From the UHGV virus genome UHGV-1424210: a stretch of DNA of 10,134 nt. The stretch is one strand, 5' to 3'. Below, piece after piece: positions 1-10,134 of this stretch. Each line of letters starts with the position of its first letter. Positions within the stretch are counted from its first letter, which is position 1. Both the position numbers and the translations under genes were made by a program. Below the pieces are notes generated by a model. The model did no database searches and was not told the DNA's origin. It worked only from the letters and a program-made list of their open reading frames with translations. Origin of the DNA: a virus.

Positions 1-96
1 AGATTCGCGCCATGTGCTTTTGCCCTTGAGCAATTCCTTAAAGAGTACAGGGAAACGCGCCCATTGCAGGTATGGCAACGAACTGAACCAGACTGA
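1..96 (+). CDS. Possible 3' end of a gene entering from the left edge (partial, 31 codons, stop TGA 94-96)
   Basis: Frame 1 is open from the window edge to TGA at 94-96 (…RFAPCAFALEQFLKEYRETRPLQVWQRTEPD). A plus-strand intrinsic terminator lies about 65 bp downstream. No recognisable motif. Confidence 0.25.
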   Translation, partial: RFAPCAFALEQFLKEYRETRPLQVWQRTEPD

Positions 97-160
97 TTGC
101 ATTGCCCACCAGCCTGATAGCGGCTATCATCCCCGTGCTTATGTTTAGTGTTTTCCCATT

Positions 161-189
161 GGCGACCGCCCCCGGTCGCCTTTGTTTTA
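161..189 (+). terminator. Rho-independent terminator, plus-strand orientation
   Basis: Perfect 8-bp GC-rich stem GGCGACCG (161-168) / CGGTCGCC (173-180) with loop CCCC, followed by TTTGTTTTA (181-189). On the minus strand the hairpin is not followed by a U-tract. Confidence 0.5.
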
Positions 190-207
190 TGTGTCATATG
201 CTCCCCT

Positions 208-417
208 TTACACTGCCTTACCTGAATTAATGCGATCCCGGCTTTTAACCCATTCCATAACCTCGGACAGCAGCCACCCTACAGAACGACCGCCCAGATT
301 AAGACGTGACGGAAAGCTCCCTTTTTTCTCCAGTTCGTAGCGTGTAGTGCGACACACTCCAGTTAACTTACGACATTCATCCTCACGGATTACGCGATCT
401 TCATTTATTTCACGCAT
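208..417 (-). CDS. alpA: AlpA-family (prophage CP4-57 regulatory protein / excisionase-like) helix-turn-helix regulator, about 69 aa
   Basis: Translation MREINEDRVIREDECRKLTGVCRTTRYELEKKGSFPSRLNLGGRSVGWLLSEVMEWV fits the AlpA/Xis-like HTH pattern. Start set at the ATG at 417-415. The ORF-track start at 504 is a GTG directly abutting AAGAGG, with no usable spacing, and would add 29 non-conserved residues. Confidence 0.75.
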   Translation of the reverse strand: MREINEDRVIREDECRKLTGVCRTTRYELEKKGSFPSRLNLGGRSVGWLLSEVMEWVKSRDRINSGKAV

Positions 418-758
418 ACAAAAACCTACATAAAAATTACGTATATAAACTTTTCTCTTAGCTGTAGATATATGAGATCGGATATTACTTAGATTCTTTT
501 TCACCTCTTAAATTAAAAACACAACCATGCTAAAGGCTTTGTTCGCTAAGGTTCGTAGAAGCTCGTTAGTGTTTAAAATCGTGTCACGAGTTTTTAAGCG
601 ACGCAACAAAAAATGTCGTCATTTGGCATGACACCTTAATTACCTCATTAAAAACAAATAGATAAACCATCAGGTGTTGGAACAATCAAGAAACAGAGAA
701 TAAGAACTCAGAAGAAGACATTTCAATTTTTTTCGATAGTTGACACATATAAAGAGAA

Positions 759-784
759 GATATTTGCAGATATTCCCCGATATT
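759..784. promoter_or_regulatory. Three GATATT hexamers at exact 10-bp phasing (759, 769, 779) in the AT-rich int-alpA spacer
   Basis: gatatttgca gatattcccc gatattctaa; helical phasing suggests a protein-binding array. It lies upstream of alpA and just downstream of the int stop. Confidence 0.35.
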
Positions 785-798
785 CTAAGATCTATTCA

Positions 799-830
799 CG
801 GCTGTAATCTCTTAAAGAAAAAACAGCCGT
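799..830. other. Inverted repeat ACGGCTGT (799-806) / ACAGCCGT (823-830) immediately downstream of the int stop
   Basis: Perfect 8-bp inverted repeat separated by 16 bp of A/T-rich sequence. Not a canonical terminator because no U-tract follows on the minus strand. Confidence 0.3.
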
Positions 831-836
831 AATTTG

Positions 837-2075
837 TCAAGAATTTTGGGGGTAAATTCGCGGGGTCATAACAACGATTTTTTCATCATTGTTCTGGAGA
901 AGCTCGAGACGGTCTACCCATAGATTAAGAGCATCACGTTTTGCATCAAGGTAGCGGGAGTGGTTATAGACTCGTTGCATCCCTGGCATCTGGTGGGCTG
1001 TAAGCTGCTCGACAATATGCGGATCCACGCCTAAATCGTTCAGCATGGTTGTAAATGTGTGCCGGATATCGTGTAACGTCCAGGGGGCTTGATTAATTCG
1101 TCTGTGCGCTGTTCTTCCGTACTCTGCTACCGAAGATTGTCCTTTCAGTTCACCAAGCAATAAGCCTGTGTGTCTGTTCTGCTCCACCAGTTGCGTGACG
1201 AACGGCAAAATGCTTTCCGGTATTGGCCTGAATATGGCGACCTTCGTTTTGCTGTGCTCCTTCGGTACTGTCCAGAGCATTTCTTTAAAATCCCACTCCT
1301 GCACCTCAGAGCGCCTTAGCTCAGTGGTACGGCATCCAAAAACAATCAGGAGGCGAATTAGGGCGCTGTAGTATGGCGGGAATATTTTGTCATCCAGGGC
1401 GCGGAGTAATTCCCCAAGCTCCTTATTTGTTAGTACGCGCTCGCTCACTTCTGCTTTTTTTCCCACATCACCGACAACCATATCATCAAGAACGTTGCTG
1501 ATTGCGTATCGTCGTTTTCGGCAGTACTTAAGCGCCTGTTTGCATACCTGTAGCAAAAATCCGGCAGATACAGGGCTTCGCTTTGCCATCTGGTCAAAAC
1601 ATGCCAACCAGTGCCGTAGCTCGCATTTTTCCAACGGCAAAGCGCCAATCTGGCTGATTATGTGTTTATTGATCCGGCTTTTCAGTGATTCGTAGTCAGT
1701 GCGCTTTTCCTTTGCATACGATTCAAGCCAGTAAGTGAGCGCTTCCTTAACTGTCACGGGGGCTAACGCATCCTGTACAGCACGATTAAGCTCATAGCGC
1801 GGATTTTTCCCCTCAGCCAGCCAGGCGCGACACTGTGCTGCTTTTTCCCTGGCTGCTTTCAGGCTCAGATCGGGATAATTGCCCAGTCTCAGACGTTCCG
1901 GTGATACCTGCCTACCAGTTCCGGCCCTGTAAGTGAAATACCAGGTTAACAGGCCGCTGGTGGAATGTCTTACGCTAAGATTGCCACCGTCATTAAAAAA
2001 GGCGTTTTTTGTGGTTGGTGATCCGCTTAATTTTCGTAAAAGAGTGTCGCTAAGTCTATGAATTGCGCTGCTCAT
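837..2075 (-). CDS. int: Site-specific tyrosine recombinase (P4-type integrase), 412 aa
   Basis: Full-length ORF starting with ATG at 2075-2073. C-terminal catalytic-domain signatures: conserved Arg in LIVFGCRTTELRR, His-x-x-Arg box WTLHDIRHTFTT, and a C-terminal Tyr region QRVYNHSRYLD. Overall resemblance to P4/CP4-57-type integrases. Confidence 0.9.
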   Translation of the reverse strand: MSSAIHRLSDTLLRKLSGSPTTKNAFFNDGGNLSVRHSTSGLLTWYFTYRAGTGRQVSPERLRLGNYPDLSLKAAREKAAQCRAWLAEGKNPRYELNRAVQDALAPVTVKEALTYWLESYAKEKRTDYESLKSRINKHIISQIGALPLEKCELRHWLACFDQMAKRSPVSAGFLLQVCKQALKYCRKRRYAISNVLDDMVVGDVGKKAEVSERVLTNKELGELLRALDDKIFPPYYSALIRLLIVFGCRTTELRRSEVQEWDFKEMLWTVPKEHSKTKVAIFRPIPESILPFVTQLVEQNRHTGLLLGELKGQSSVAEYGRTAHRRINQAPWTLHDIRHTFTTMLNDLGVDPHIVEQLTAHQMPGMQRVYNHSRYLDAKRDALNLWVDRLELLQNNDEKIVVMTPRIYPQNS

Positions 2076-2098
2076 GTTTAGCGTTTCCGGTCATCAAA

Positions 2099-2355
2099 AT
2101 TAACTACACCATTGACTACACCGTGCATCGTACAAGGGCAAACCGTGACGAACAAGAGCGAACAAGGAAAACAAAATTTTCCTTTATAATCATAGCGATG
2201 AATGCACACAAAACACTACCACGAACACCCGCGAACACTAGATGATAAATAACTATCATTTATATCATTTAGTTAATTAGTCTTTATTTTTCATTATGTT
2301 GCAAATAACAAGCCCGTCAAAAACAGTGATATTAACTACACCATTAACTACACCG
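2099..2355. repeat. Pair of 25-bp direct repeats, ATTAACTACACCATT(G/A)ACTACACCG, at 2099-2123 and 2331-2355
   Basis: The two copies differ at one position and are 232 bp apart. Each is itself a tandem duplication of ATT(A/G)ACTACACC. They flank the putative int promoter. Confidence 0.7.
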
Positions 2356-2386
2356 CTTCACGAACAATATCGAACAACCGCGAACA
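2149..2386. repeat. Seven CGAACA hexamers in helically phased (10-bp) groups upstream of int
   Basis: CGAACA at 2149 and 2159; at 2222 and 2232; and at 2361, 2371 and 2381, with exact 10-bp spacing within each group. Candidate integrase arm-type or AlpA/RDF binding sites. Confidence 0.6.
2293..2320 (-). promoter_or_regulatory. Candidate sigma70 promoter directed toward int
   Basis: On the minus strand: -35 TTGACG (reverse complement of 2315-2320), 16-bp spacer, -10 CATAAT (reverse complement of 2293-2298). Predicted leader of about 210 nt to the int ATG at 2075. Lies between the repeat groups. Confidence 0.35.
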
Positions 2387-2642
2387 AAGATCAACACGCT
2401 TTAATCATTATCATTTTCCGGCTATCCGTCATGAAGCTGGTGGATGATCTGCGTGGTGATTTCCACCATTCAGAGCAGGGGCGGTCATCATGACCATGCC
2501 ATAACAAAAACCCCATATTCGTGGTTTTTCTGTGTCGGGGCTATTCTGCTGTTGCCGTGCTGGTGGATATTCTCCGGTATGCGGCTCCCCATATCGGCAT
2601 CAGGCCCACCAGCGTGAAGCGTTTTTCATTTTTCGCGGGTAT

Positions 2643-2702
2643 AAAAAATCGATGGGGCGGGCAGTCCTGAAGACGTCAGGGTACAGAGATTTGACCCGCC
2701 CC
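2643..2702 (-). terminator. Intrinsic terminator (minus strand): compound GC stem followed by U6
   Basis: GGGGCGGG (2654-2661) pairs with CCCGCCCC (2695-2702), enclosing an inner hairpin CCTGA-agacg-TCAGG (2666-2680). On the minus-strand RNA this is followed by AUCGAUUUUUUAU (plus-strand A-run 2643-2648). Confidence 0.5.
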
Positions 2703-2716
2703 TCCCTGTGCATGAG

Positions 2717-2752
2717 CACAATAAGTAACCGAAGGCGGAATTCCGCCCTCGG
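2717..2752 (-). terminator. Intrinsic terminator (minus strand): 10-bp stem around GGCGGAATTCCGCC plus U-rich tail
   Basis: Minus-strand RNA CCGAGGGCGG-AAUU-CCGCCUUCGG (one G-U pair) followed by UUACUUAUUGUG. First terminator reached after the packaging operon. Confidence 0.5.
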
Positions 2753-2784
2753 TACTTACATATGAGAAACGATATTTCTTCCAC

Positions 2785-2925
2785 CGATACCCTTTATTTG
2801 GGTATCGCGAGTAAGCCCCAAAATCTGGGTGTTACTCTTACTACCCAAACTACGGGTAGTTTCCGTAGTTTCATGGTCGAGTTGCAAATCTGCAACTCAC
2901 CCACCAGCCAACGCAATTTTGCGTT
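2785..2925. other. Cluster of four hairpins / inverted repeats in the untranslated region downstream of the packaging genes
   Basis: H1 CGATACCC-tttattt-GGGTATCG (2785-2807); H2 alternative stems ACTACCC/GGGTAGT (2840-2860) or AAACTACGG/CCGTAGTTT (2847-2871); H3 GAGTTGC-aaatct-GCAACTC (2879-2898); H4 AACGCA-attt-TGCGTT (2910-2925). Confidence 0.45.
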
Positions 2926-2943
2926 ATCGGGAATATCAGCAAG

Positions 2944-3324
2944 TTACCGCCGCAGTCGTTCCGGCTTCTTCCACTGGTAAGTACTTTTCGCGCTCTCCCT
3001 CCGTTGTTGAGAACGGCGACGGTATGCCAGCAACTCAAGGACTCTGGTTCGTATGTTGCGCATATCCACGCCGTTAAGCTCAATACCATCACGGCGCATC
3101 ACCTCAGCAACAACACGCGCGTAATTTTCGGCTATCACGCTGTCCGGCTGCGTGGCCTCCTGTTCGCCAGCCTGCTGGCTGATTCCGGTAATACTGCGGA
3201 TTATCCCGAGCGCTTCGGTCTCGGTCATGGTCATGGTCATGGCCTCCATAGTGATGGCGGGTCCTCCTTGTGGGGTGCCCTGCCACGGGGCGGGAGCATC
3301 GCGGAAAAAGGCTAGTTTTTGCAT
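2944..3324 (-). CDS. Hypothetical protein downstream of terS (126 aa from ATG 3324; more likely about 101 aa from ATG 3249)
   Basis: Same strand as the operon. A strong SD, AAGGAGGA, lies 13 nt upstream of the internal ATG at 3249; the ATG at 3324 has no SD. Contains an in-frame (ATGACC)3 repeat encoding MTMTMT. No recognisable family. Confidence 0.45.
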   Translation of the reverse strand: MQKLAFFRDAPAPWQGTPQGGPAITMEAMTMTMTETEALGIIRSITGISQQAGEQEATQPDSVIAENYARVVAEVMRRDGIELNGVDMRNIRTRVLELLAYRRRSQQRRESAKSTYQWKKPERLRR

Positions 3325-3485
3325 TTTTATTCGTCATCACCACCAATGCAATATATTGATATGACTTGATGTTTTATTTTTCGGTGTCGATTTCGATTGT
3401 TTTTTGTTCATCACTGACGCATAACGCCCACCAGCGCAACGCTGAAAGCCAGTCAGTAAACTGGCTTCGGTCATTGTGCACTACG

Positions 3486-4028
3486 TTACTTGTCTTTATC
3501 CGGCTGAAACTTATCAGGCACATTTCCGGTAGTTTCCATCAGATAATCGGACAGCATTCGCGGGATGTTTTCATCAAGTTTTGTGCATGCGTTACAGGCT
3601 CTGACAACTTCTTTTTTCAGGCCATCCAGCATGACGGGGGTCATCTGTGGGAAGCTCCTTTGCATAGTAAGCGGGAGGCTGTCCATGATTGATGAAATCT
3701 GACTCGCCAGTTTTGAAAGCGCGTACATGCAAAACTCTGTATCAATCACGTCACCGCGATCGCGCTCGTTTTTAAGTTCCTGCGCCTCCGCCTGTGCTGT
3801 CAGTAATCTGATCCTGACTCGTAAGAGTTCATCATCATCAATCTCGCCTTTGTCGTTTGTAAGCTGGCTAATTGCATTGTTAACCCTATTGTCTATCACG
3901 CTGGCAACATCATAAAACGCCTCACGGCCTTTACGTTCAACGGGAGTCACTCCCCACTTGTCGAATGCTGTAGCACTTACCCGGCAGCTTTGCGCCATGG
4001 TTTTTTTGTTCATCAGGTGCGATTTCAT
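3486..4028 (-). CDS. Terminase small subunit, lambda Nu1-like
   Basis: Full-length collinear similarity to lambda Nu1 as recalled: RLLTAQAEAQELKNERDRGDVIDTEFCMYALSKLASQISSIMDSLPLTMQRSFP… versus lambda RLTRAQADAQELKNARDSAEVVETAFCTFVLSRIAGEIASILDGLPLSVQRRFP…; C-terminus ENIPRMLSDYLMETTG versus ELIPGLLSEYIEQSG. The ORF-track start at 4031 is TTG; ATG candidates are 4028 and 4013 (MNKK…, matching lambda MEVNKK…). Confidence 0.85.
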   Translation of the reverse strand: MKSHLMNKKTMAQSCRVSATAFDKWGVTPVERKGREAFYDVASVIDNRVNNAISQLTNDKGEIDDDELLRVRIRLLTAQAEAQELKNERDRGDVIDTEFCMYALSKLASQISSIMDSLPLTMQRSFPQMTPVMLDGLKKEVVRACNACTKLDENIPRMLSDYLMETTGNVPDKFQPDKDK

Positions 4029-4129
4029 CAATATCCCAACTTGGTCAAGGTTTCAGGTTGGTGTGTTGGTGTTATCTTTCCCTTTTTATTCATGGAGATA
4101 GAGCAAACAACAAAACCACCACCACCACC

Positions 4130-4215
4130 CTGAAAAAGCTCATAAATAGCGAAAAACCGCAAGGTCGCCGCCCCGTAGCCTACCGGATCGCCGGAAAGGA
4201 CCCGCCAGCCAGAAC
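4130..4215 (-). other. Lambda-type cos site (cosQ/cosN-like); cosN cohesive-end sequence at 4162-4173
   Basis: Minus strand reads GGGCGGCGACCT at 4173-4162, identical to the lambda 12-nt cohesive end as recalled. Both flanks also resemble lambda: CGGGTCCTTTCCGGCGATCCGGTAGGCTACG upstream and TGCGGTTTTTCGCTATTTATGA downstream. About 135 bp upstream of the terS start, as in lambda. Confidence 0.8.
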
Positions 4216-4229
4216 GGGACCTAATTTCA

Positions 4230-4613
4230 TCAACCAATCAACTTATAGCGACCATCCCGTGCATTGCGACGTACACGCTCAATCTTGAGGCATAGCGCCG
4301 CATCTGGCTTTTTTGGGACAGGTACGCGGCAATATTCAGAAGCTCGAGGAATATTGTTTATCCAGTCGATCACTTCACTTAAATACCAGGCCTTACGCCC
4401 TTCCGTAACCTGTACGCGCTCGGGGAACTCTCCGCGAGCCTCAAGGTTTAGCAATGTGCGACGGCTAAGGGTAGTAAGTTCCATCACCTGATTCATATCA
4501 ACAAGGCGTTCACTTAAACGCATTTTGTCAGCAATAGCCTTTAATTCCTCTACTGCTGGATCCGGATACATCATTTCGGCAATTGGCTTAAGGTCATTGT
4601 AATGATTCTGCAT
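4230..4613 (-). CDS. AlpA-family HTH protein with an approximately 45-aa N-terminal extension (127 aa)
   Basis: C-terminal part VMELTTLSRRTLLNLEARGEFPERVQVTEGRKAWYLSEVIDWI matches the AlpA/excisionase-like HTH pattern. ATG at 4613 is preceded by SD AAGGGGGA at 5-nt spacing. Sits between the D-like gene and cos. Confidence 0.75.
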   Translation of the reverse strand: MQNHYNDLKPIAEMMYPDPAVEELKAIADKMRLSERLVDMNQVMELTTLSRRTLLNLEARGEFPERVQVTEGRKAWYLSEVIDWINNIPRASEYCRVPVPKKPDAALCLKIERVRRNARDGRYKLIG

Positions 4614-4624
4614 TGTATCCCCCT

Positions 4625-4966
4625 TTACACACGAGCCAGCGGCTGAACAGAAATACCTGAGCCAACAAACGCGGCAACCTTTGCCGACAGTTCTTTTACA
4701 GACTCAGGCCAGTTCAGAGCATCAACATTTAAAACACCTGTCTTATAAACCTGTGCCTGTGTTTTTTTCGCTGTGTCGATTTGTACAGCGGAAACATAAA
4801 CCGCTTTGCCTGCGCTCGTTCCATCCCATACCACTAGCGCACCAGTTGCATCTTCCTGCATCAGTGGCGTAAACGCAGGTATTACCCCTTTATTGGCTGA
4901 AAATATCCCCAGCGTAGTAACCAGTGCTTCAGTGCCAGACATGAGTTCAGTGTAATGAGTAGCCAT
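4625..4966 (-). CDS. Head decoration protein, lambda gpD-like (113 aa)
   Basis: Similar length to lambda D (110 aa), with shared motifs THY, TPLM, WDGT, KTG, WPE and a C-terminal AF-G-x-IS. SD AAGGGGGAG upstream of the ATG at 4966. Starts 10 bp after the capsid gene stop. Confidence 0.8.
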   Translation of the reverse strand: MATHYTELMSGTEALVTTLGIFSANKGVIPAFTPLMQEDATGALVVWDGTSAGKAVYVSAVQIDTAKKTQAQVYKTGVLNVDALNWPESVKELSAKVAAFVGSGISVQPLARV

Positions 4967-4975
4967 TGCTCCCCC

Positions 4976-6022
4976 TTAGCCAATGCGAACGGTAACAAAA
5001 CGATTGATGCGGGCCGGTATTGGCTGTGGTGCTGAATGTGTCTGCACATATTCAATAGCCGGATCACCAGGCACAATATAGTTTTTCGGTGCAAGTTCGG
5101 CTTTAGTCAGCCCCATCCGGATTAGCTCCGGATCCTGAATACCGCCATAAGCGACAATCCCCTGAAGAGCCGTATTGCCAAGCACCATCAAATCAGGATC
5201 AAGGAAATATTTTTCAGTTCCGTCCTCGTCGGTATAACGCCCGCTGTAAACAACAATCGCAACATCGCCCATATACCCTTTAAAACTCACCGAATCACCA
5301 AGGTCTTTAAGGGCCGTTTCCAGTTCGGAATTAGAACCACGACGAGTATCCAGAGCCTCTTTTATCGCCCTGAATGAACGGTATTTCTTCCATACATTAC
5401 CGCCCATAATGATAATATTAGTGACGCCCTCACTAAATTCTGCGTAGCTCTCAATATCATCATTTGGATCAAAAGCTTCTTTATCCTTACCTGACCACTC
5501 AGCACCGCCAGACTGAGTGATGATATTTTGTGGTTTAATATTCCAGTCCAGCTCATAACGTTCAATACCATCGCCCTCAATGATATTTTTCCCCGTTGTG
5601 ATTGCCTGAACGGCAAGCCATTCAATACGTGCACGAATAGCTTTAGCCTGATTTACAATCGCCTGTTTAACTTTAATATTACGCGCTCCAAAAGCATTGT
5701 ATTGCTCAGGTGATACACCAGCAGGGCGCACAGCTAACTTATTTGGATCAATGCTGCTTTTCGGTTTCATATAGCCAGGGCGAATTGTTTTTGATTCGTA
5801 TCCCTCATCTCGTGAAACTTTACTGCCCACCATAGGAGAGCAAAACGCCGCGATCGGGATATTTGGATCGTCGATCGTATCAAGAATAATGTCTCTCGAT
5901 TCAAACATTACCGAGCGAGTGAAAAACAAACTGGTAAACAACGCATTTAATTTTTTTTGCACATCTTCAGCATTAGCCACCTGCACAAGCTGTGTAGGCG
6001 AATATAAGTCAACCATACTCAT
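4976..6022 (-). CDS. Major capsid protein, lambda gpE-like (about 348 aa)
   Basis: Collinear similarity to lambda gpE as recalled, e.g. NIITQSGGAEWSGKDKEAFDPNDDIESYA and ALDTRRGSNSELETALKDLGDSVSFKGYMGDVAIVVYSGRY versus lambda NITQSGGTEWSKRDKSTYDPTDDIEAYA and KLDTRRGSNSELETAVKDLGKAVSYKGMYGDVAIVVYSGQY. Start set by homology at MSMVDLY (ATG 6022); the alternative ATG at 6016 has better SD spacing. The ORF-track start at 6103 is TTG. Confidence 0.9.
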   Translation of the reverse strand: MSMVDLYSPTQLVQVANAEDVQKKLNALFTSLFFTRSVMFESRDIILDTIDDPNIPIAAFCSPMVGSKVSRDEGYESKTIRPGYMKPKSSIDPNKLAVRPAGVSPEQYNAFGARNIKVKQAIVNQAKAIRARIEWLAVQAITTGKNIIEGDGIERYELDWNIKPQNIITQSGGAEWSGKDKEAFDPNDDIESYAEFSEGVTNIIIMGGNVWKKYRSFRAIKEALDTRRGSNSELETALKDLGDSVSFKGYMGDVAIVVYSGRYTDEDGTEKYFLDPDLMVLGNTALQGIVAYGGIQDPELIRMGLTKAELAPKNYIVPGDPAIEYVQTHSAPQPIPARINRFVTVRIG

Positions 6023-6187
6023 CCTCTTTACATTCATTACAAATAATTGTGAATATATTCTATTACCGATGTCTGCTATGCGAATACATGCAACCAAGTG
6101 CAATGTTGTATAAAATATGCTGTGACAACTTCAGTGCTGATAATTCGTGTTAATGTATTTACTTCCTTTGGTCGGGATTTATGTAGC

Positions 6188-6216
6188 ATGCCGGAAAATC
6201 TATTTTTTTCCGGCAT
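6188..6216. other. 11-bp-stem hairpin between the SSB-like and capsid genes (terminator-like)
   Basis: ATGCCGGAAAA (6188-6198) / TTTTCCGGCAT (6206-6216) with a 7-nt loop. A T-rich tract follows on the plus strand only, so its role in the minus-strand operon is uncertain. Confidence 0.35.
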
Positions 6217-6233
6217 CTTTTTGTTTGCAGAAT

Positions 6234-6656
6234 TTAAAACGGTATATTATCGCCGTACGGATCATCATTCCCCGACTGTTGTTTTGCCCTGTTCAGTGCG
6301 TCAGTGGCCTGCCCCTGCTGGCCTTTTTTGCCGCCCGGTCGCGCTGTTCGCGCACTGATCACGCTGTCTGCGATAACCTGCCAGCCCTGCCGCGTTTCGC
6401 CGTTCTGGCCTGTCCACTGGCTTACCTGCATGTTACCCGCCACGCTCACCAGTTCGCCTTTGTGGTGTTTTGCCAGTGCGTCGGCCTGTCTGCCAAACGC
6501 CAGGACGGATAACCACATCATCGCCGTTCCGTCATCTGCCTGGCTGCACGGAAGGGGGACCGCCATACTAGCCATCGCCATTTGTGTACCCTTGCTGGTG
6601 GTCTTTAACTGCGGGTCAGCCACCAGCCGTCCGTAAGCCGCTATCTGTGCTGTCAT
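6234..6656 (-). CDS. Single-stranded DNA-binding protein (SSB)-like, 140 aa
   Basis: OB-fold-like core WLSVLAFGRQADALAKHHKGELVSVAGNMQVSQWTGQNGETRQGWQVIADSV resembles E. coli SSB [51 protein letters not shown]. Gly/Gln-rich linker and acidic C-terminal tip DDPYGDNIPF (compare SSB DFDDDIPF). SD GGAGAG upstream; the start ATG overlaps the upstream stop (ATGA). Confidence 0.65.
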   Translation of the reverse strand: MTAQIAAYGRLVADPQLKTTSKGTQMAMASMAVPLPCSQADDGTAMMWLSVLAFGRQADALAKHHKGELVSVAGNMQVSQWTGQNGETRQGWQVIADSVISARTARPGGKKGQQGQATDALNRAKQQSGNDDPYGDNIPF

Positions 6657-6895
6657 GCTGTCTGCTCTCCGGTTTTAACGTTGATGGTTGTCACCTGTTC
6701 CGCTTCGGCAATCTCCCGTTCTGTCAGCGTGGCAAAGTTTGCAGCTGCCGTTGTCATGAATGCGCTAATCAGTTCGGGATGTGCTTTCGCATATCCTTCC
6801 CCGGCGTTGCGGTCGATGATTTTTATCGCCACTCTCAGCCAGTGCTCTGTAAGGTCAATAGCGCGGTAGTGTGGTTGTTTGCGGTTTTCCTTCAT
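6653..6895 (-). CDS. Hypothetical protein, 80 aa, translationally coupled to the SSB-like gene
   Basis: ATG-initiated ORF whose stop overlaps the SSB-like start (ATGA). First gene after the iteron region. No recognisable motif. Confidence 0.5.
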   Translation of the reverse strand: MKENRKQPHYRAIDLTEHWLRVAIKIIDRNAGEGYAKAHPELISAFMTTAAANFATLTEREIAEAEQVTTINVKTGEQTA

Positions 6896-6935
6896 AGTTC
6901 AGATCTCAATTTTTCGTATATATATACAAAACAGT

Positions 6936-7250
6936 GCGGGTTATGCGGGTTAGCGGGTTATCTTCGCTTGCTAAGTATTTTTTATTCCTTAATATCAATA
7001 CATTACAAAATTAACTGTTTACTGTTTAGCCGTGGCGTAACCCGCAAAATGCTCAAAATAACCCGCAAACGGGGTTTTTTCTGCGGGTTACGCGTGGCTG
7101 TTTGCTGTCACTTCCTGTTATTCATCTGCGGGTTATAATCGCACTTTTGCGGGTTATAACTGCCGTTTTGCGGGTTACGTGCGGGTTATTGATTTCCTTT
7201 TTATTCATGCAGTTAATGCACTTATACACAGAGTAACCCACATAACCCGC
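6936..7250. repeat. Iteron array (9-bp GCGGGTTAY) flanking an AT-rich stretch: candidate replication origin
   Basis: Direct copies at 6936-6944, 6945-6953, 6954-6962, 7083-7091, 7128-7136, 7149-7157, 7170-7178 and 7181-7189. Inverted copies (TAACCCGC) at 7036-7044, 7058-7066 and 7242-7250, plus a degenerate one near 7233-7240. AT-rich region 6962-7030. Immediately downstream of the Rep stop at 7274. Confidence 0.7.
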
Positions 7251-7273
7251 AACTTTTCACCTCACACAGGGGG

Positions 7274-9397
7274 TTAATCTTCTGCCTCAGGCTGGAACAT
7301 CAGCACGTAAAAAACATGCTGCTTCCCCCCAATTTTGCCGAGAGCCTTTTTCTTGTAACGGCGATCGTTACCCGCTTCCAGCATTCCGGCAGCACTCAAC
7401 GCGCGGGCAAAGTGGGACGGGTTAAATCCCTGTGCGATCTCCCCCTCAAACACATGAGGAAACGTGTAAAAACGGAACTCATCATCTTCATTTCTGATAC
7501 TCCCCTTTCTGTATCCGGCAAGGTCTTTAATCGGTAAATCACGTTCATCACTGTTTGGGTAAGGAAGGTATCGACTGAACCCGAACGACGACAAAAACGC
7601 CTCAGCCTGTTCAACCATCTGTTTAAATTCCCTGTTACCCGTGCCGAACTCCTTCACCCAGGCATTAAAGTTATGCTGTATTGCGTCCCGGCATTCCTGC
7701 GCGGCCCAGCCAGTTACATGACCGGAAAGCACAAGCGCGGCCTCCAGTATGGCGAAACGCTCACCCACGCGGTGGACTTGCTCGCCGTAGCTCTCCGGTA
7801 TCAGGTTGCGCCACCGTTCGCGGCATTCCCTTACCGTATCCTTTGCCTCCTGCTGGTGGCCTGCCAGCCATTTAACCCACTCACGACCCGCTGCCCCGTG
7901 ATTTTCTGTCCAGGCATCCTTTAACGCGTCTGCGTGCGCCTTTCCGGTGCTGTATTCGTGAAAGTGCGTGGCTTTTTCCATCGGAACGTTAAGCAGGCGG
8001 ACAAGCTGCCCCGCTTTGACTTTTATCCCCTCCGTTTTGAGGAATGTCTCAACGTCCATTTCTCCGGTGCTGATTGCCACCGTGCGCCAGTGTTTTATCT
8101 CCCGGTTGCCGCCGTCCTTCGCCCCCTGTAATTTCCCGGAACCGTTAAACAACGTATAGGCTGACGTGGACACCTCCCGCGCGTTTCCGGCCTGGCCTAT
8201 TTCATCCAGGGGTAACAGCCCGTCGTTGTGCGCCTCTGCCTCGTTAGCGATACCTAACGCTGTGCCGTACCAGGTCAGCCGTTGTGCGTCCGGCTCTCCC
8301 CATAAACTTGATGCGATGTTCTGCGTGGTGGTTTTCCCTGCCGATGACTGTTCGAAAAGATGTACCCCGAAGCCGTCAGCACCAACAAGGCCAATCAAAG
8401 GTGCTGCCAGTGACGTGGCAACACCCAGCATCATGGACGGATTGCCACCAGCCAGCCGCGCCACGCAGTCGCGCCAGCCCTCCGACGTACCCGCAACCGA
8501 ATAGCCATTAACAGTGGCACTTTTTCCGGTAAACAGGATCGGTTTTTCAGAATCACCAATGATTGAGCCGTCCGGCATGATATACGCGCCAAAATGCCAG
8601 CCCGTTGTTGTGCTTAGCTGCCATTCCTCATGGCTTCCGCTTAACTGCATCCAGTCAGCCAGGATAGCCCTGTATTTGCCGTTTGTTGTCACGTTCAGCC
8701 CGTGATCTTTAAGCAACCGCCAGCCGTCACGGTCGCCAATGCCACCACACGGGATCGCCATTGTGATGACTTCATGGTTTGCTAATTTTTTCCAGCGCAT
8801 CACGCGGTAATGCTCTTTACCGATCGTCCCCGTTCCCAGTAGTTCAAGCGGAGAACATAACCACGTCTCAGGCCGGATAATTTCGCCTGACTGCTTATCC
8901 ACTTTGGGCGTTACCCAGAAAACACCATCGACGCGACTTTCAACGCGGGGCTTTAATTCATCATCCTGATAGCATGGCTCTTTTTTCTTTACAGGCAGTT
9001 CAACTACCTTTTTCTTTTCCGCCTGCTCTGCCCGTTCACGTTCCAGATATTCGCGCCAGTTCTCCCGTTTCTGGCTGTGCATTCCTTCAGGGTAATAATC
9101 AGCATCCCTGACACCTGCCGCTGCCAGTTTCTGCCCGATGGTATTAACAAGCCCCGGACGCAATAACCCCGCCTGGTAGAGACGCACGCGATAGCGTCCG
9201 TCCGGTACGATTTGCAGGTTGTCCAGTTCGGCAAGTTGTTGCTCTCCAAGCCAGACAGGTGGCACGTTATCGCCAGCCAGTCGCCCGTCCTGTTCCTGCC
9301 ACTGCTTCGCATGTGCCCACGCATCACTACCCGCAAAAATGATGACTTCCGTCATTTTGTCACGCGGCTGGTGTTTTAAATTTGGCGCTTTTTTCAT
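7274..9397 (-). CDS. Replication initiator (primase/helicase-like ATPase; resembles DUF927-type proteins of CP4-57/PICI-like islands), about 707 aa
   Basis: Long ORF with P-loop-like motif FEQSSAGKTT and Walker-B-like LLPLDEIG. Adjacent iteron origin. Start set at ATG 9397 (SD GGAGAGAG, ATGA overlap with the upstream ORF stop); the ORF-track start at 9412 is GTG. Family assignment is from memory, not from a search. Confidence 0.8.
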   Translation of the reverse strand: MKKAPNLKHQPRDKMTEVIIFAGSDAWAHAKQWQEQDGRLAGDNVPPVWLGEQQLAELDNLQIVPDGRYRVRLYQAGLLRPGLVNTIGQKLAAAGVRDADYYPEGMHSQKRENWREYLERERAEQAEKKKVVELPVKKKEPCYQDDELKPRVESRVDGVFWVTPKVDKQSGEIIRPETWLCSPLELLGTGTIGKEHYRVMRWKKLANHEVITMAIPCGGIGDRDGWRLLKDHGLNVTTNGKYRAILADWMQLSGSHEEWQLSTTTGWHFGAYIMPDGSIIGDSEKPILFTGKSATVNGYSVAGTSEGWRDCVARLAGGNPSMMLGVATSLAAPLIGLVGADGFGVHLFEQSSAGKTTTQNIASSLWGEPDAQRLTWYGTALGIANEAEAHNDGLLPLDEIGQAGNAREVSTSAYTLFNGSGKLQGAKDGGNREIKHWRTVAISTGEMDVETFLKTEGIKVKAGQLVRLLNVPMEKATHFHEYSTGKAHADALKDAWTENHGAAGREWVKWLAGHQQEAKDTVRECRERWRNLIPESYGEQVHRVGERFAILEAALVLSGHVTGWAAQECRDAIQHNFNAWVKEFGTGNREFKQMVEQAEAFLSSFGFSRYLPYPNSDERDLPIKDLAGYRKGSIRNEDDEFRFYTFPHVFEGEIAQGFNPSHFARALSAAGMLEAGNDRRYKKKALGKIGGKQHVFYVLMFQPEAED

Positions 9398-9693
9398 TTC
9401 TGCTCTCTCCACGCGGCAATCATGTTTTTCAGTTCCTGTAGTTTTTTATCCACATCCACACGTGACACATGGTTATTTCTGGAAGTCGGGATTTCCCGCC
9501 GGAATCTGCAAATAAAGATCTCCACGTTCAGCGAACTAAGAAATGAATAGCCATCACGGATAAAATACACACGGTCAAACATCAGTTCTTTTACCGTTAC
9601 TCTGTTACCGTTCTTATCCAGATAAATAGCGCCGGGGATAATTTGGGGGTGTGCATAACCGCTGGCAGTCAAGCCAGATAAATACGTTCTCAT
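9394..9693 (-). CDS. Hypothetical protein, 99 aa, translationally coupled to rep
   Basis: ATG at 9693 with an upstream GGGGAT; stop overlaps the rep ATG. No recognisable motif. Confidence 0.55.
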   Translation of the reverse strand: MRTYLSGLTASGYAHPQIIPGAIYLDKNGNRVTVKELMFDRVYFIRDGYSFLSSLNVEIFICRFRREIPTSRNNHVSRVDVDKKLQELKNMIAAWREQK

Positions 9694-9699
9694 GATTAT

Positions 9700-10020
9700 T
9701 TATCCCCGATTTGAATCAGTATTCGCTTTCTTTATAGCATTTAATGCATCTGTGGCATTTTCAATGGTGCACCGTAACGAAATATCAAAATGTCCAAGCA
9801 TTGCCAGTAACAAACCGATATTACCCATATCAATGCGCATGGCCTTTTCGTCATAGTCCTCATTTTCTGACGCATGCCACATCAGGCTACCAATTGACGC
9901 AACAGCCATTGATATATTGTCAGTAGCCCCATCCGCAGCGGAATAAACCTTTTTAGCAATATCATGCTCACAGTTAAAATGCGGATTAATCAGGTACTGG
10001 TAATTTGACATATCAGGCAT
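9700..10020 (-). CDS. Hypothetical protein, 106 aa
   Basis: ATG-initiated ORF. Its start overlaps the stop of the upstream partial ORF by 8 nt. Six bp separate its stop from the next start. Confidence 0.55.
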   Translation of the reverse strand: MPDMSNYQYLINPHFNCEHDIAKKVYSAADGATDNISMAVASIGSLMWHASENEDYDEKAMRIDMGNIGLLLAMLGHFDISLRCTIENATDALNAIKKANTDSNRG

Positions 10021-10134
10021 GGCACACCCCCTGACGAATACGGGCAGCGAATACCATCACGCAGCCAGCCGGGGATTGCAGGCGTGCTTCCTGTTCGCTG
10101 GTGGCCTCAATGGTAATCACGCGCGGTTGTGCCG
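10013..10134 (-). CDS. Partial CDS (C-terminal 39 codons) entering from the right edge
   Basis: Open minus-strand frame from the window edge to TGA at 10015-10013 (…VITIEATSEQEARLQSPAGCVMVFAARIRQGVCHA), overlapping the next gene start; indicates an operon of at least four genes. Confidence 0.4.
   Translation of the reverse strand, partial: AQPRVITIEATSEQEARLQSPAGCVMVFAARIRQGVCHA

What the first reader, a model, noticed from the sequence alone, without database searches (positions are those of the whole stretch)
6234..6656. Element-encoded SSB-like protein with a variant C-terminal tip (DNIPF)
A compact OB-fold SSB homologue ending in DDPYGDNIPF, rather than the canonical DDDIPF, is coupled to an unknown 80-aa ORF next to the origin. 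The C-terminal tip is the SSB partner-recruitment motif, so an altered tip could change which host or helper proteins are bound during satellite replication or interference.
Basis: partly seen in the sequence, partly recalled or inferred. Interest (0 to 1): 0.45.

Follow-up and report, generated by a model that had tools for sequence, protein, structure and literature searches.

The report
Ordinary SSB gene of a phage satellite
This is a real single-stranded-DNA-binding protein gene in the replication module of a common E. coli phage satellite (PICI); its "odd" tail differs from the textbook one mainly at a position that varies freely in this family, so it is an ordinary, already-annotated gene.

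Summary
Window 6234-6656 (minus strand) encodes a 140-aa protein ending NDDPYGDNIPF. It passes the curated cut-offs of Pfam SSB and TIGR00621, and its model is an OB fold followed by a disordered tail. Its start overlaps the stop of an 80-aa ORF (ATGA). Both genes lie just downstream of an iteron origin: 11 copies of GCGGGTTA against 0.25 expected.

The window is a circularly permuted ~10-kb Gram-negative PICI of the EcCICFT073 type. The prototype has the same rep-ori-small ORF-SSB layout, and its SSB ends DDPYGDDIPF. RefSeq already names this protein an SSB. The gene matches in 1384 of 5426 complete E. coli genomes.

The functional reading is only weakly supported. Among 170 unique family sequences, D(-4) and I(-2) are almost invariant. 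The same GDNIPF allele sits behind four different replication helicases, each with its own iterons, so the tip does not co-vary with the element's replication proteins.

Most likely this is an accessory replication SSB whose I-P-F anchor docks onto host SSB-binding proteins. Retuned partner choice is not excluded. It needs peptide-binding and deletion experiments.

The parts
6234..6656 (-). ssb gene of the satellite (140 aa plus stop)
   Evidence: ORF. Pfam PF00436 and TIGR00621 above curated cut-offs. PGAP product 'single-stranded DNA-binding protein' WP_000126634.1.
6348..6656 (-). OB-fold ssDNA-binding domain, residues 1-103
   Evidence: AlphaFold pLDDT 82-92. Foldseek top hits are S. aureus SsbA/SsbB and B. 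subtilis SsbA, probability 1.0. W48, F54 and W81 align with E. coli W54, F60 and W88 and are invariant in the family.
6270..6347 (-). Short disordered linker, residues 104-129
   Evidence: pLDDT below 50. The region is rich in indels and is replaced by unrelated linker sequences in sister alleles.
6237..6269 (-). C-terminal tip N-D-D-P-Y-G-D-N-I-P-F, residues 130-140
   Evidence: Sequence. Column statistics: D136 169/170 and I138 160/170; position 137 is N92/D38/G23/E15; P139 and F140 were fixed by the filter used to pick the set. 107 of 120 cluster representatives end in IPF.
6653..6895 (-). 80-aa ORF of unknown function, translationally coupled to ssb
   Evidence: ATGA overlap and GGAGAG Shine-Dalgarno. 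phrog_1231 E 5e-49. 167 homologues, almost all from E. coli and Shigella and all 'hypothetical'. Predicted helical hairpin, pLDDT 67, no PDB fold match. 91% identical to the ORF at the same place in EcCICFT073.
6936..7250 (.). Replication origin: iteron cluster with 11 copies of GCGGGTTA in both orientations
   Evidence: (0.25 expected by chance). It lies immediately 3' of the rep gene, as described for PICI origins (PMC6092414).
7274..9412 (-). Replication initiator/helicase (712 aa): shared N-terminal ~145-aa domain plus DUF927 helicase
   Evidence: Pfam DUF927 E 3.7e-47. Weak similarity to the SCCmec Cch1 helicase. The N-terminal domain is shared with three other helicase types.
6188..6216 (.). 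11-bp perfect hairpin 18 nt downstream of the ssb stop codon. It separates the replication genes from the capsid genes.
   Evidence: The T-run follows the hairpin only on the plus strand, so a terminator role for the minus-strand operon is uncertain.
2242..2263 (.). att core (ATGATAAATAACTATCATTTAT), where the two ends of the integrated element meet in this permuted window
   Evidence: Window 2242-10134 matches L001 8349-16235 and window 1-2263 matches L001 16832-19094, with a 22-bp overlap.

Best explanation
The gene encodes a bona fide bacterial-type SSB. It is the last gene of the replication module (rep helicase, iteron origin, 80-aa ORF, ssb) of an EcCICFT073-type phage-inducible chromosomal island. 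Shown: the sequence and predicted fold are those of an SSB. The tail is disordered and ends in an I-P-F tip. The gene is translationally coupled to the upstream ORF. The module sits beside an iteron origin. The layout is conserved in the prototype PICI and in cfPICI relatives. Inferred: after helper-phage induction the island's Rep helicase opens the iteron origin, and the island's own SSB coats the exposed single strands. The C-terminal Ile-Pro-Phe-COO- then docks into the same hydrophobic pockets of host SSB-interacting proteins that host SSB uses (Pol III chi, DnaG, PriA and others). This links host priming and elongation enzymes to a replicon driven by a non-DnaB helicase that has no recognisable primase domain. 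The N at position -3 is an allele-class difference at a weakly constrained position, not a new recognition code.
For: SSB identity. Conserved ssDNA-contact aromatics W48, F54 and W81. Replication-module context: 11 iterons and DUF927 Rep. The same order rep-ori-small ORF-ssb occurs in EcCICFT073, in a cfPICI with a D5-type Rep and in a Klebsiella element. The PICI literature places SSB in the replication category next to mapped origins (PMC10111431). Tip anchor retained: D136 169/170 and I138 160/170; 107 of 120 representatives end in IPF. Wider relatives at 34-60% identity show F-[DN]-D-x-[ILV]-P-F with x variable. No tip/Rep covariation: YGDNIPF occurs with AAA_25 (25), D5a (25), D5b (32) and DUF927 (17), and YGDDIPF and YGDGIPF are likewise spread across Rep types. 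That fits a constant, host-side partner. The hydrophobic anchor dominates SSB-Ct binding (PMC3152348; PMC10238739). None of the four Rep types has a Pfam primase domain.
Against: No experiment on any PICI SSB was found. Host SSB is present, and lambda-type helpers manage without their own SSB, so the need for an island copy is unexplained. The tip has only one Asp in its last six residues, against three in host SSB, which could weaken electrostatically driven contacts. W40 of E. coli SSB is not conserved (Q39). Oligomeric state is unknown.
Confidence: 0.7

Rival explanations
1. One reading: the altered tip (Y-G-D-N-I-P-F against the host's F-D-D-D-I-P-F) retunes which host or helper proteins are recruited. 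For example it could favour or avoid the helper's Red-beta-type annealase or particular host SSB-interacting proteins, giving the satellite a private interaction channel or a means of interference.
For: Three of the last seven residues differ from host SSB. G at -5 (145/170) and an aromatic at -6 (170/170) are a stable signature of the clade. Within the 140-aa allele class N is stable (62 of 64 unique genes). RecT-SSB compatibility is set by the last 7 residues, and one residue can switch it. The phage HK620 SSB tip NDYPPF recruits its cognate Sak4 (PMC5928155).
Against: Position -3 takes N, D, G and E among otherwise very similar alleles, and the prototype PICI has D there. The anchor residues are unchanged. 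There is no covariation with Rep type. The element encodes no annealase or other obvious tip partner.
Confidence: 0.12
2. The 80-aa protein and the SSB form an element-specific complex that works with the shared ~145-aa N-terminal domain of the Rep proteins. This complex would act as a loader, or supply the missing priming function, in the way the SCCmec CcPol-MP (polymerase-SSB) primase pairs do.
For: Translational coupling. orf80 is present in 114 of 115 loci with AAA_25, D5a or D5b Reps. All four Rep types share the unknown N domain and lack a primase domain. In a Klebsiella relative a Zn/Toprim primase domain occupies that position and the small ORF there is unrelated. There is a precedent for MGE SSB-like subunits of primases next to DUF927 or D5-type helicases (PMC10061031).
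Against: orf80 is predicted to be a helical hairpin, not a polymerase palm. The SSB keeps a full canonical architecture, including the host-type tip. Some loci have ssb without orf80. There is no interaction evidence.
Confidence: 0.1
3. The SSB is not mainly for replication. Instead it acts as a weapon or shield: it titrates SSB-interacting proteins away from the helper phage, or modulates defence systems that sense SSBs, such as Retron-Eco8 or DRT10.
For: PICIs interfere with their helpers (PMC6092414). Phage SSBs are known triggers of defence systems (titles and abstracts).
Against: No PADLOC hit. The gene lies in the replication module, not the interference/packaging module. It is conserved next to the origin in unrelated satellites.
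Confidence: 0.05

Closest known systems
SSB of the prototype Gram-negative PICI EcCICFT073 (WP_000126698.1, NC_004431 1384538-1384948)
   Same: 69% identical over the full length. It has the same place in the element (rep, ori, small ORF with 4-nt overlap, ssb) and the same tip frame, DDPYGD-x-IPF.
   Different: 136 aa with a different linker (SRRKTTGTQGNQPPAG type). The tip is D-D-I-P-F rather than D-N-I-P-F. It is followed by a PerC gene that this window lacks. Its Rep is D5-type rather than DUF927.
Escherichia coli chromosomal SSB (PF00436; tip MDFDDDIPF)
   Same: OB fold. W54, F60 and W88 equivalents. Disordered linker. Terminal I-P-F with Asp at -4 and an aromatic at -6.
   Different: Only 26% identity in the OB domain. 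The L23 loop is 5 residues shorter and lacks W40. H55 is replaced by L49. The linker is ~26 aa against ~55. There is one Asp rather than three in the last six residues.
SSB of lambdoid phage HK620 (tip NDYPPF; partner Sak4)
   Same: An SSB encoded by a mobile element, with a non-canonical tip ending P-F. In HK620 that tip is needed to recruit a cognate partner (PMC5928155).
   Different: No close sequence relationship: no phage record reaches 60% identity and the listed hits are 23-33% identical. The PICI encodes no Sak4 or annealase, and its gene neighbours are replication genes rather than recombination genes.
Firmicute SsbA/SsbB (S. aureus, B. subtilis) and staphylococcal/streptococcal phage SSBs
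   Same: These are the best structural matches (TM-score up to 0.82 normalised to target) and the best phage-database hits.
   Different: About 27-30% identity, and a different host range.
SCCmec CcPol-MP primase (A-family polymerase plus small SSB-like protein next to Cch/DUF927 or D5-type helicase)
   Same: A mobile-element replication operon that combines a small protein, an OB-fold ssDNA binder and a DUF927 or D5-type helicase wrongly called 'primase' (PMC10061031; Cch1 similarity).
   Different: The small partner here is a predicted helical hairpin with no polymerase palm. The SSB here is a full canonical SSB with a host-type tip, and the gene order differs.

Membership tests
Bacterial-type SSB (Pfam PF00436 / TIGR00621) | Sequence matches the family profile above the curated cut-off | tested here: met
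   PF00436 57.4 bits against 26. TIGR00621 59.3 bits against 53.95.
Bacterial-type SSB (Pfam PF00436 / TIGR00621) | OB-fold three-dimensional structure | tested here: met
   Predicted model only: residues 1-103 at pLDDT 82-92. Foldseek PDB hits are SSBs at E 1e-9, probability 1.0.
Bacterial-type SSB (Pfam PF00436 / TIGR00621) | Aromatic ssDNA-stacking residues (E. coli W40, W54, F60, W88) | tested here: inconclusive
   W48, F54 and W81 align with W54, F60 and W88 and are invariant in the family. W40 aligns with Q39, in a loop that is 5 residues shorter.
Bacterial-type SSB (Pfam PF00436 / TIGR00621) | Intrinsically disordered linker after the OB domain | tested here: met
   pLDDT below 50 for residues 104-140. 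The segment is indel-rich and replaceable in homologues.
Bacterial-type SSB (Pfam PF00436 / TIGR00621) | Acidic C-terminal tip ending in hydrophobic [IL]-P-F | tested here: met
   The protein ends D-N-I-P-F. 107 of 120 family representatives end in IPF. D(-4) is 169/170 and I(-2) 160/170. The acidic run is reduced: one Asp in the last six, plus D-D at -9 and -8.
Bacterial-type SSB (Pfam PF00436 / TIGR00621) | Homotetramer that binds ssDNA; tip binds SSB-interacting proteins | not testable with these tools
   Needs purified protein (EMSA, SEC-MALS, peptide binding). No multimer prediction was available.
Gram-negative PICI, EcCICFT073 type | Tyrosine integrase and co-oriented AlpA regulator at one end; att direct repeat | tested here: met
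   int 837-2075 and alpA 208-504. 22-bp att core. The element is integrated between clpS and cspD in NZ_CP109921.
Gram-negative PICI, EcCICFT073 type | Own replication initiator followed by an iteron origin | tested here: met
   DUF927 Rep and 11 iterons 3' of it.
Gram-negative PICI, EcCICFT073 type | Small (~10 kb), with a few late genes (capsid, decoration, small terminase-like) but no tail, lysis, portal or large-terminase genes | tested here: met
   ORF list and Pfam: gpE-like, gpD-like and Nu1-like only. PGAP annotation of the integrated copy.
Gram-negative PICI, EcCICFT073 type | Synteny and homology with the prototype | tested here: met
   int 77%, alpA 62%, Rep N-domain 70%, orf80 91%, SSB 69%, capsid 54%, decoration 54%, orf126 72%, in the same order.
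Gram-negative PICI, EcCICFT073 type | Induction, packaging and transfer by a helper phage | not testable with these tools
   Indirect only: the window is a circularly permuted, excised-type junction, and close relatives are abundant among IMG/VR viral contigs.
SCCmec-type Pol-SSB primase pair | Small OB-fold protein paired with an A-family-polymerase-derived (RRM palm) protein | tested here: not met
   The adjacent 80-aa ORF is predicted as two helices, with no Pfam, PDB sequence or fold match.

The most novel reading that the evidence does not exclude
The orf80-ssb cassette is a portable two-protein unit that works with the unknown ~145-aa N-terminal domain shared by four unrelated PICI helicases. 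Together they would supply or recruit the priming function these so-called 'primases' lack. In this reading the clade-specific tail (P-Y-G-D-x-I-P-F, with allele classes N, G, D and E) sets which partner is engaged: host DnaG or chi, the Rep N domain, or the helper's annealase.
Probability: 0.1. Interest if true: 0.55.

Novelty: already known. Interest (0 to 1): 0.18.

Why it matters
It matters little for discovery. The protein is already annotated as an SSB in RefSeq, a homologue sits in the prototype PICI, and the PICI literature already lists SSB among the replication genes. The useful outcome is a corrected reading. The residue flagged as unusual is the least constrained one, and the real clade signature is Y-G-D-x-I-P-F with a reduced acidic run. 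No PICI SSB has been studied experimentally. These elements occur in about a quarter of complete E. coli genomes and are being engineered as delivery vehicles. Knowing whether the island SSB is needed for replication, and what its tail binds, would therefore be a modest practical gain.

Tried and rejected
1. Antisense plus-strand ORFs across the gene were rejected, because the minus-strand ORF has strong family homology.
2. Diversifying selection at position -3 was checked. The column is the second most variable in the protein. Within the 140-aa allele class, however, it changes only twice on a neighbour-joining tree (62 of 64 N). The variation lies between tail classes and is not recurrent.
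3. Tip-Rep covariation was tested on 200 unique loci, and none was found.
4. I asked whether the shared Rep N-terminal domain is the iteron reader. It was rejected: L003-type and window-type Reps share a 97% identical N domain but have different iterons (GGTGAACAG against GCGGGTTA).
5. I asked whether that N domain is a hidden Toprim or primase. There is no Pfam hit at E <= 1, no PDB profile hit below E 0.05 and no hhalign match to the Klebsiella Zn/Toprim region.
6. The function of orf80 was sought without success: no Pfam or NCBIfam hit, PHROG 'unknown', no PADLOC hit, no PDB sequence or fold hit.
7. A helper-phage origin for the gene is not supported: all 113 phage-database hits are below 60% identity, the listed ones are 23-33%, and they are mostly Staphylococcus and Streptococcus phages.
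8. Rfam found nothing at gathering threshold in the window.
9. Literature searches found no experimental work on a PICI SSB.

Full report
**1. The observation**

The ORF listing gives a 140-aa ORF at 6234..6656 on the minus strand. Read on that strand, the gene ends gat gat ccg tac ggc gat aat ata ccg ttt taa, which is D-D-P-Y-G-D-N-I-P-F-stop. Its ATG overlaps the TGA of the upstream 80-aa ORF (6653..6895) as ATGA, and GGAGAG lies 8 nt upstream of the ATG.

**2. It is an SSB**

- Pfam PF00436 matches residues 5-99 at E 1.7e-15, with 57.4 bits against a cut-off of 26.
- NCBIfam TIGR00621 scores 59.3 bits against a cut-off of 53.95.
- phmmer finds 27 solved SSBs. The Thermus, Thermotoga and Staphylococcus proteins score better than E. 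coli SSB.
- An AlphaFold model built on 25 family members is confident over residues 1-103 (block means 82-92), with the strand pattern of an OB fold. It is unstructured from residue 104 to the end, with pLDDT below 50.
- The top 50 Foldseek PDB matches are all SSBs, with probability 1.0, E down to 1e-9 and TM-score up to 0.82 normalised to the target.
- Identity to E. coli SSB is 26% over the OB domain. W48, F54 and W81 align with the DNA-stacking residues W54, F60 and W88. W40 has no counterpart, because the L23 loop is five residues shorter. H55 is replaced by Leu.

**3. What the window is**

The whole 1.4-kb neighbourhood is 100% identical to a chromosomal island of E. coli C 237-04. PGAP already calls the gene 'single-stranded DNA-binding protein' there.

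The window is a circular permutation of that island. Window 2242-10134 equals locus positions 8349-16235, and window 1-2263 equals 16832-19094. A 22-bp overlap forms the att core.

All genes lie on one strand. In transcription order they are:

- integrase
- AlpA
- (Icd-like)
- a 106-aa ORF
- DUF4222
- a 712-aa DUF927 protein
- the intergenic origin
- the 80-aa ORF
- SSB
- a hairpin
- lambda-gpE-like capsid
- gpD-like decoration
- an AlpA-like HTH
- a Nu1-like small terminase
- a 126-aa ORF

.

This is the organisation of the Gram-negative PICIs (PMC6092414; PMC10111431). I located the prototype EcCICFT073 in the CFT073 genome. It has the same order: primase-family protein, gap, 85-aa ORF, SSB with a 4-nt overlap, PerC, capsid (c1499) and decoration (c1500). 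Identities to the window are 77% (int), 91% (80-aa ORF), 69% (SSB) and 54% (capsid and decoration).

The intergenic region upstream of the 80-aa ORF holds 11 exact GCGGGTTA copies in both orientations, all within 6936-7250, against 0.25 expected. This fits the published rule that the PICI origin lies immediately 3' of the rep gene.

**4. The tip in its family**

Of 120 cluster representatives of the family, 107 end in IPF. The counts are GDNIPF 54, GDGIPF 19, GDDIPF 14, EDEIPF 8 and SDDIPF 5.

I aligned 170 unique full-length sequences that had been chosen to end in PF. The results were:

| Position | Result |
|---|---|
| D136 (-4) | 169/170 |
| I138 (-2) | 160/170 |
| -6 | aromatic in all 170 |
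| G135 (-5) | 145/170 |
| 137 (-3) | N 92, D 38, G 23, E 15, H 1, S 1 |

It is the second most variable column of the entire protein.

The prototype EcCICFT073 SSB ends DDPYGDDIPF. More distant relatives at 34-60% identity mostly end F-[DN]-D-x-[ILV]-P-F, with x again variable.

On a tree of the 140-aa allele class, N is stable: 62 of 64 unique genes, with two changes. The variation therefore lies between tail classes and is not a fast-evolving site:

| Tail class | Residue at -3 |
|---|---|
| 140 aa | N |
| 141 aa, QHDDPYGDGIPF | G |
| 136 aa | D |
| QQDDPYEDEIPF | E |

The real difference from host SSB (FDDDIPF) is the clade signature Y-G-D-x-I-P-F. The anchor is kept, but only one of the three Asp residues remains.

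**5. What this predicts**

[quoted passage not shown] For RecO, only Pro176 and Phe177 are ordered in the structure. Only the triple Asp-to-Ala peptide loses as much binding as a single P176 or F177 change (PMC3152348). On this basis a canonical mode of binding is expected for D-N-I-P-F, perhaps with weaker electrostatics.

For RecT-type annealases the last seven residues set compatibility, and one residue can switch it (bioRxiv 10.1101/2020.04.14.041095). The HK620 phage SSB tip NDYPPF is needed for its cognate Sak4 (PMC5928155).

**6. A comparative test of 'element-specific partner'**

I collected 273 loci around family members from IMG/VR, plasmid and genome records, of which 200 are unique.

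The protein encoded upstream of the origin falls into four types: DUF927, two D5_N/DUF5906/Pox_D5 clusters, and AAA_25. Each type has its own iteron word: GCGGGTTA, GGTGAACAG, GGTAGAC or AAAGTGGG.

The YGDNIPF allele occurs with all four types (17, 25, 32 and 25 loci). YGDDIPF and YGDGIPF are also spread across types. Nearly identical SSB genes thus travel with different initiators, integrases and capsid modules. The tip is not matched to the element's own helicase or iteron specificity. This favours a constant, host-side partner, or a partner common to all these islands.

Two caveats apply. The loci were selected by SSB similarity, so SSB conservation itself is not evidence. Many loci are related by descent.

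**7. The 80-aa ORF**

It belongs to a narrow family of 167 clusters, almost all from E. coli and Shigella with single hits from Citrobacter and E. albertii, and all annotated as hypothetical (phrog_1231). It is predicted to be a helical hairpin at modest confidence (pLDDT 67). It has no fold, PDB, Pfam, NCBIfam or PADLOC match.

It accompanies the SSB in 114 of 115 loci with AAA_25 or D5-type Reps, and in 13 of 58 DUF927 loci. In a Klebsiella relative (SSB 69% identical) an unrelated 126-aa ORF occupies the same overlapping position. The coupling is real and common but not obligatory, and its function remains unknown.

**8. Mechanism**

Most likely (about 0.7) this is the island's accessory replication SSB. 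It would be expressed with the rep operon after induction, coat ssDNA opened at the iteron origin by a non-DnaB helicase, and present a host-type I-P-F tip to host replication proteins. The identity, architecture, context and conservation are shown. The timing, the partners and the need for an island copy are inferred.

None of the four Rep types has a recognisable primase domain. That makes recruitment of host DnaG via an SSB tip attractive but unproven; DnaG is a known SSB-Ct binder (PMC3632105, abstract).

The rivals are a retuned tip (0.12), an orf80-SSB-Rep N-domain complex analogous to SCCmec Pol-SSB primases (0.10; PMC10061031), and an interference or anti-defence role (0.05).

**9. Novelty and verdict**

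The exact protein is in RefSeq as an SSB. The gene matches in 1384 of 5426 complete E. coli genomes, with up to six copies per genome. A homologue is in the prototype PICI, and the PICI literature already counts SSB among the replication genes. No experimental study of a PICI SSB was found.

The finding is a correct annotation of an ordinary gene. Its functional speculation rests on the least constrained residue of the tip. Interest is low, at 0.18.

Noticed in passing
window 8978-9412 (minus strand; residues 1-145 of the 712-aa Rep): A ~145-aa N-terminal domain is shared (43-97% identity) by four otherwise different PICI replication proteins: DUF927, two D5_N/DUF5906 clusters and AAA_25. It has no Pfam hit, no PDB profile hit, and no similarity to the Zn/Toprim primase domain that occupies the same position in a Klebsiella relative. 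None of these 'primases' has a recognisable primase domain. Iteron sequence tracks the helicase part, not this domain.
   Followed up: partly
window 2242-2263, and the window ends 10134/1: The window is a circular permutation of the island. The 22-bp att core ATGATAAATAACTATCATTTAT joins the two integrated ends, as in an excised circle or a tandem copy. The window's own ends both fall in Icd-like sequence and lack 596 bp (a YlcI/YnfO gene) present in the integrated copy in NZ_CP109921. Joined, they give a short Icd-like ORF.
   Followed up: partly
loci L189-L231 (IMG/VR contigs of about 13-67 kb, mostly 19-23 kb): A sister SSB clade (58-66% identical) ends in P-P-Y-D-D-D-F, with no Ile-Pro before the terminal Phe. 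It is linked to DUF927-type Reps and lacks the 80-aa ORF.
   Followed up: no
window 3486-4031 and 4230-4613 (minus strand): A Nu1-like small-terminase homologue (181 aa) and a second AlpA-like HTH lie in the late module. Neither has a tblastn counterpart in EcCICFT073, so the packaging-redirection genes differ from the prototype's.
   Followed up: no
window 6188-6216: A perfect 11-bp hairpin lies between ssb and the capsid gene. It looks like an intrinsic terminator only on the plus strand (CTTTTTGTTT tail), opposite to all the genes.
   Followed up: no
loci L002-L081 compared with the window: There is strong mosaicism. SSB genes 96-100% identical to the window's are combined with integrases of 22-100% identity, with capsid modules that are absent or 54, 83 or 99% identical, and with four Rep/iteron types. 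The orf80-ssb segment may be a frequent recombination junction among E. coli PICIs and cfPICIs.
   Followed up: partly
window 6546-6548 (Cys37) and the P36-C37 motif: P36-C37, in the shortened L23 loop, is invariant in the 25 aligned family members. E. coli SSB has no equivalent, and the significance is unknown.
   Followed up: no
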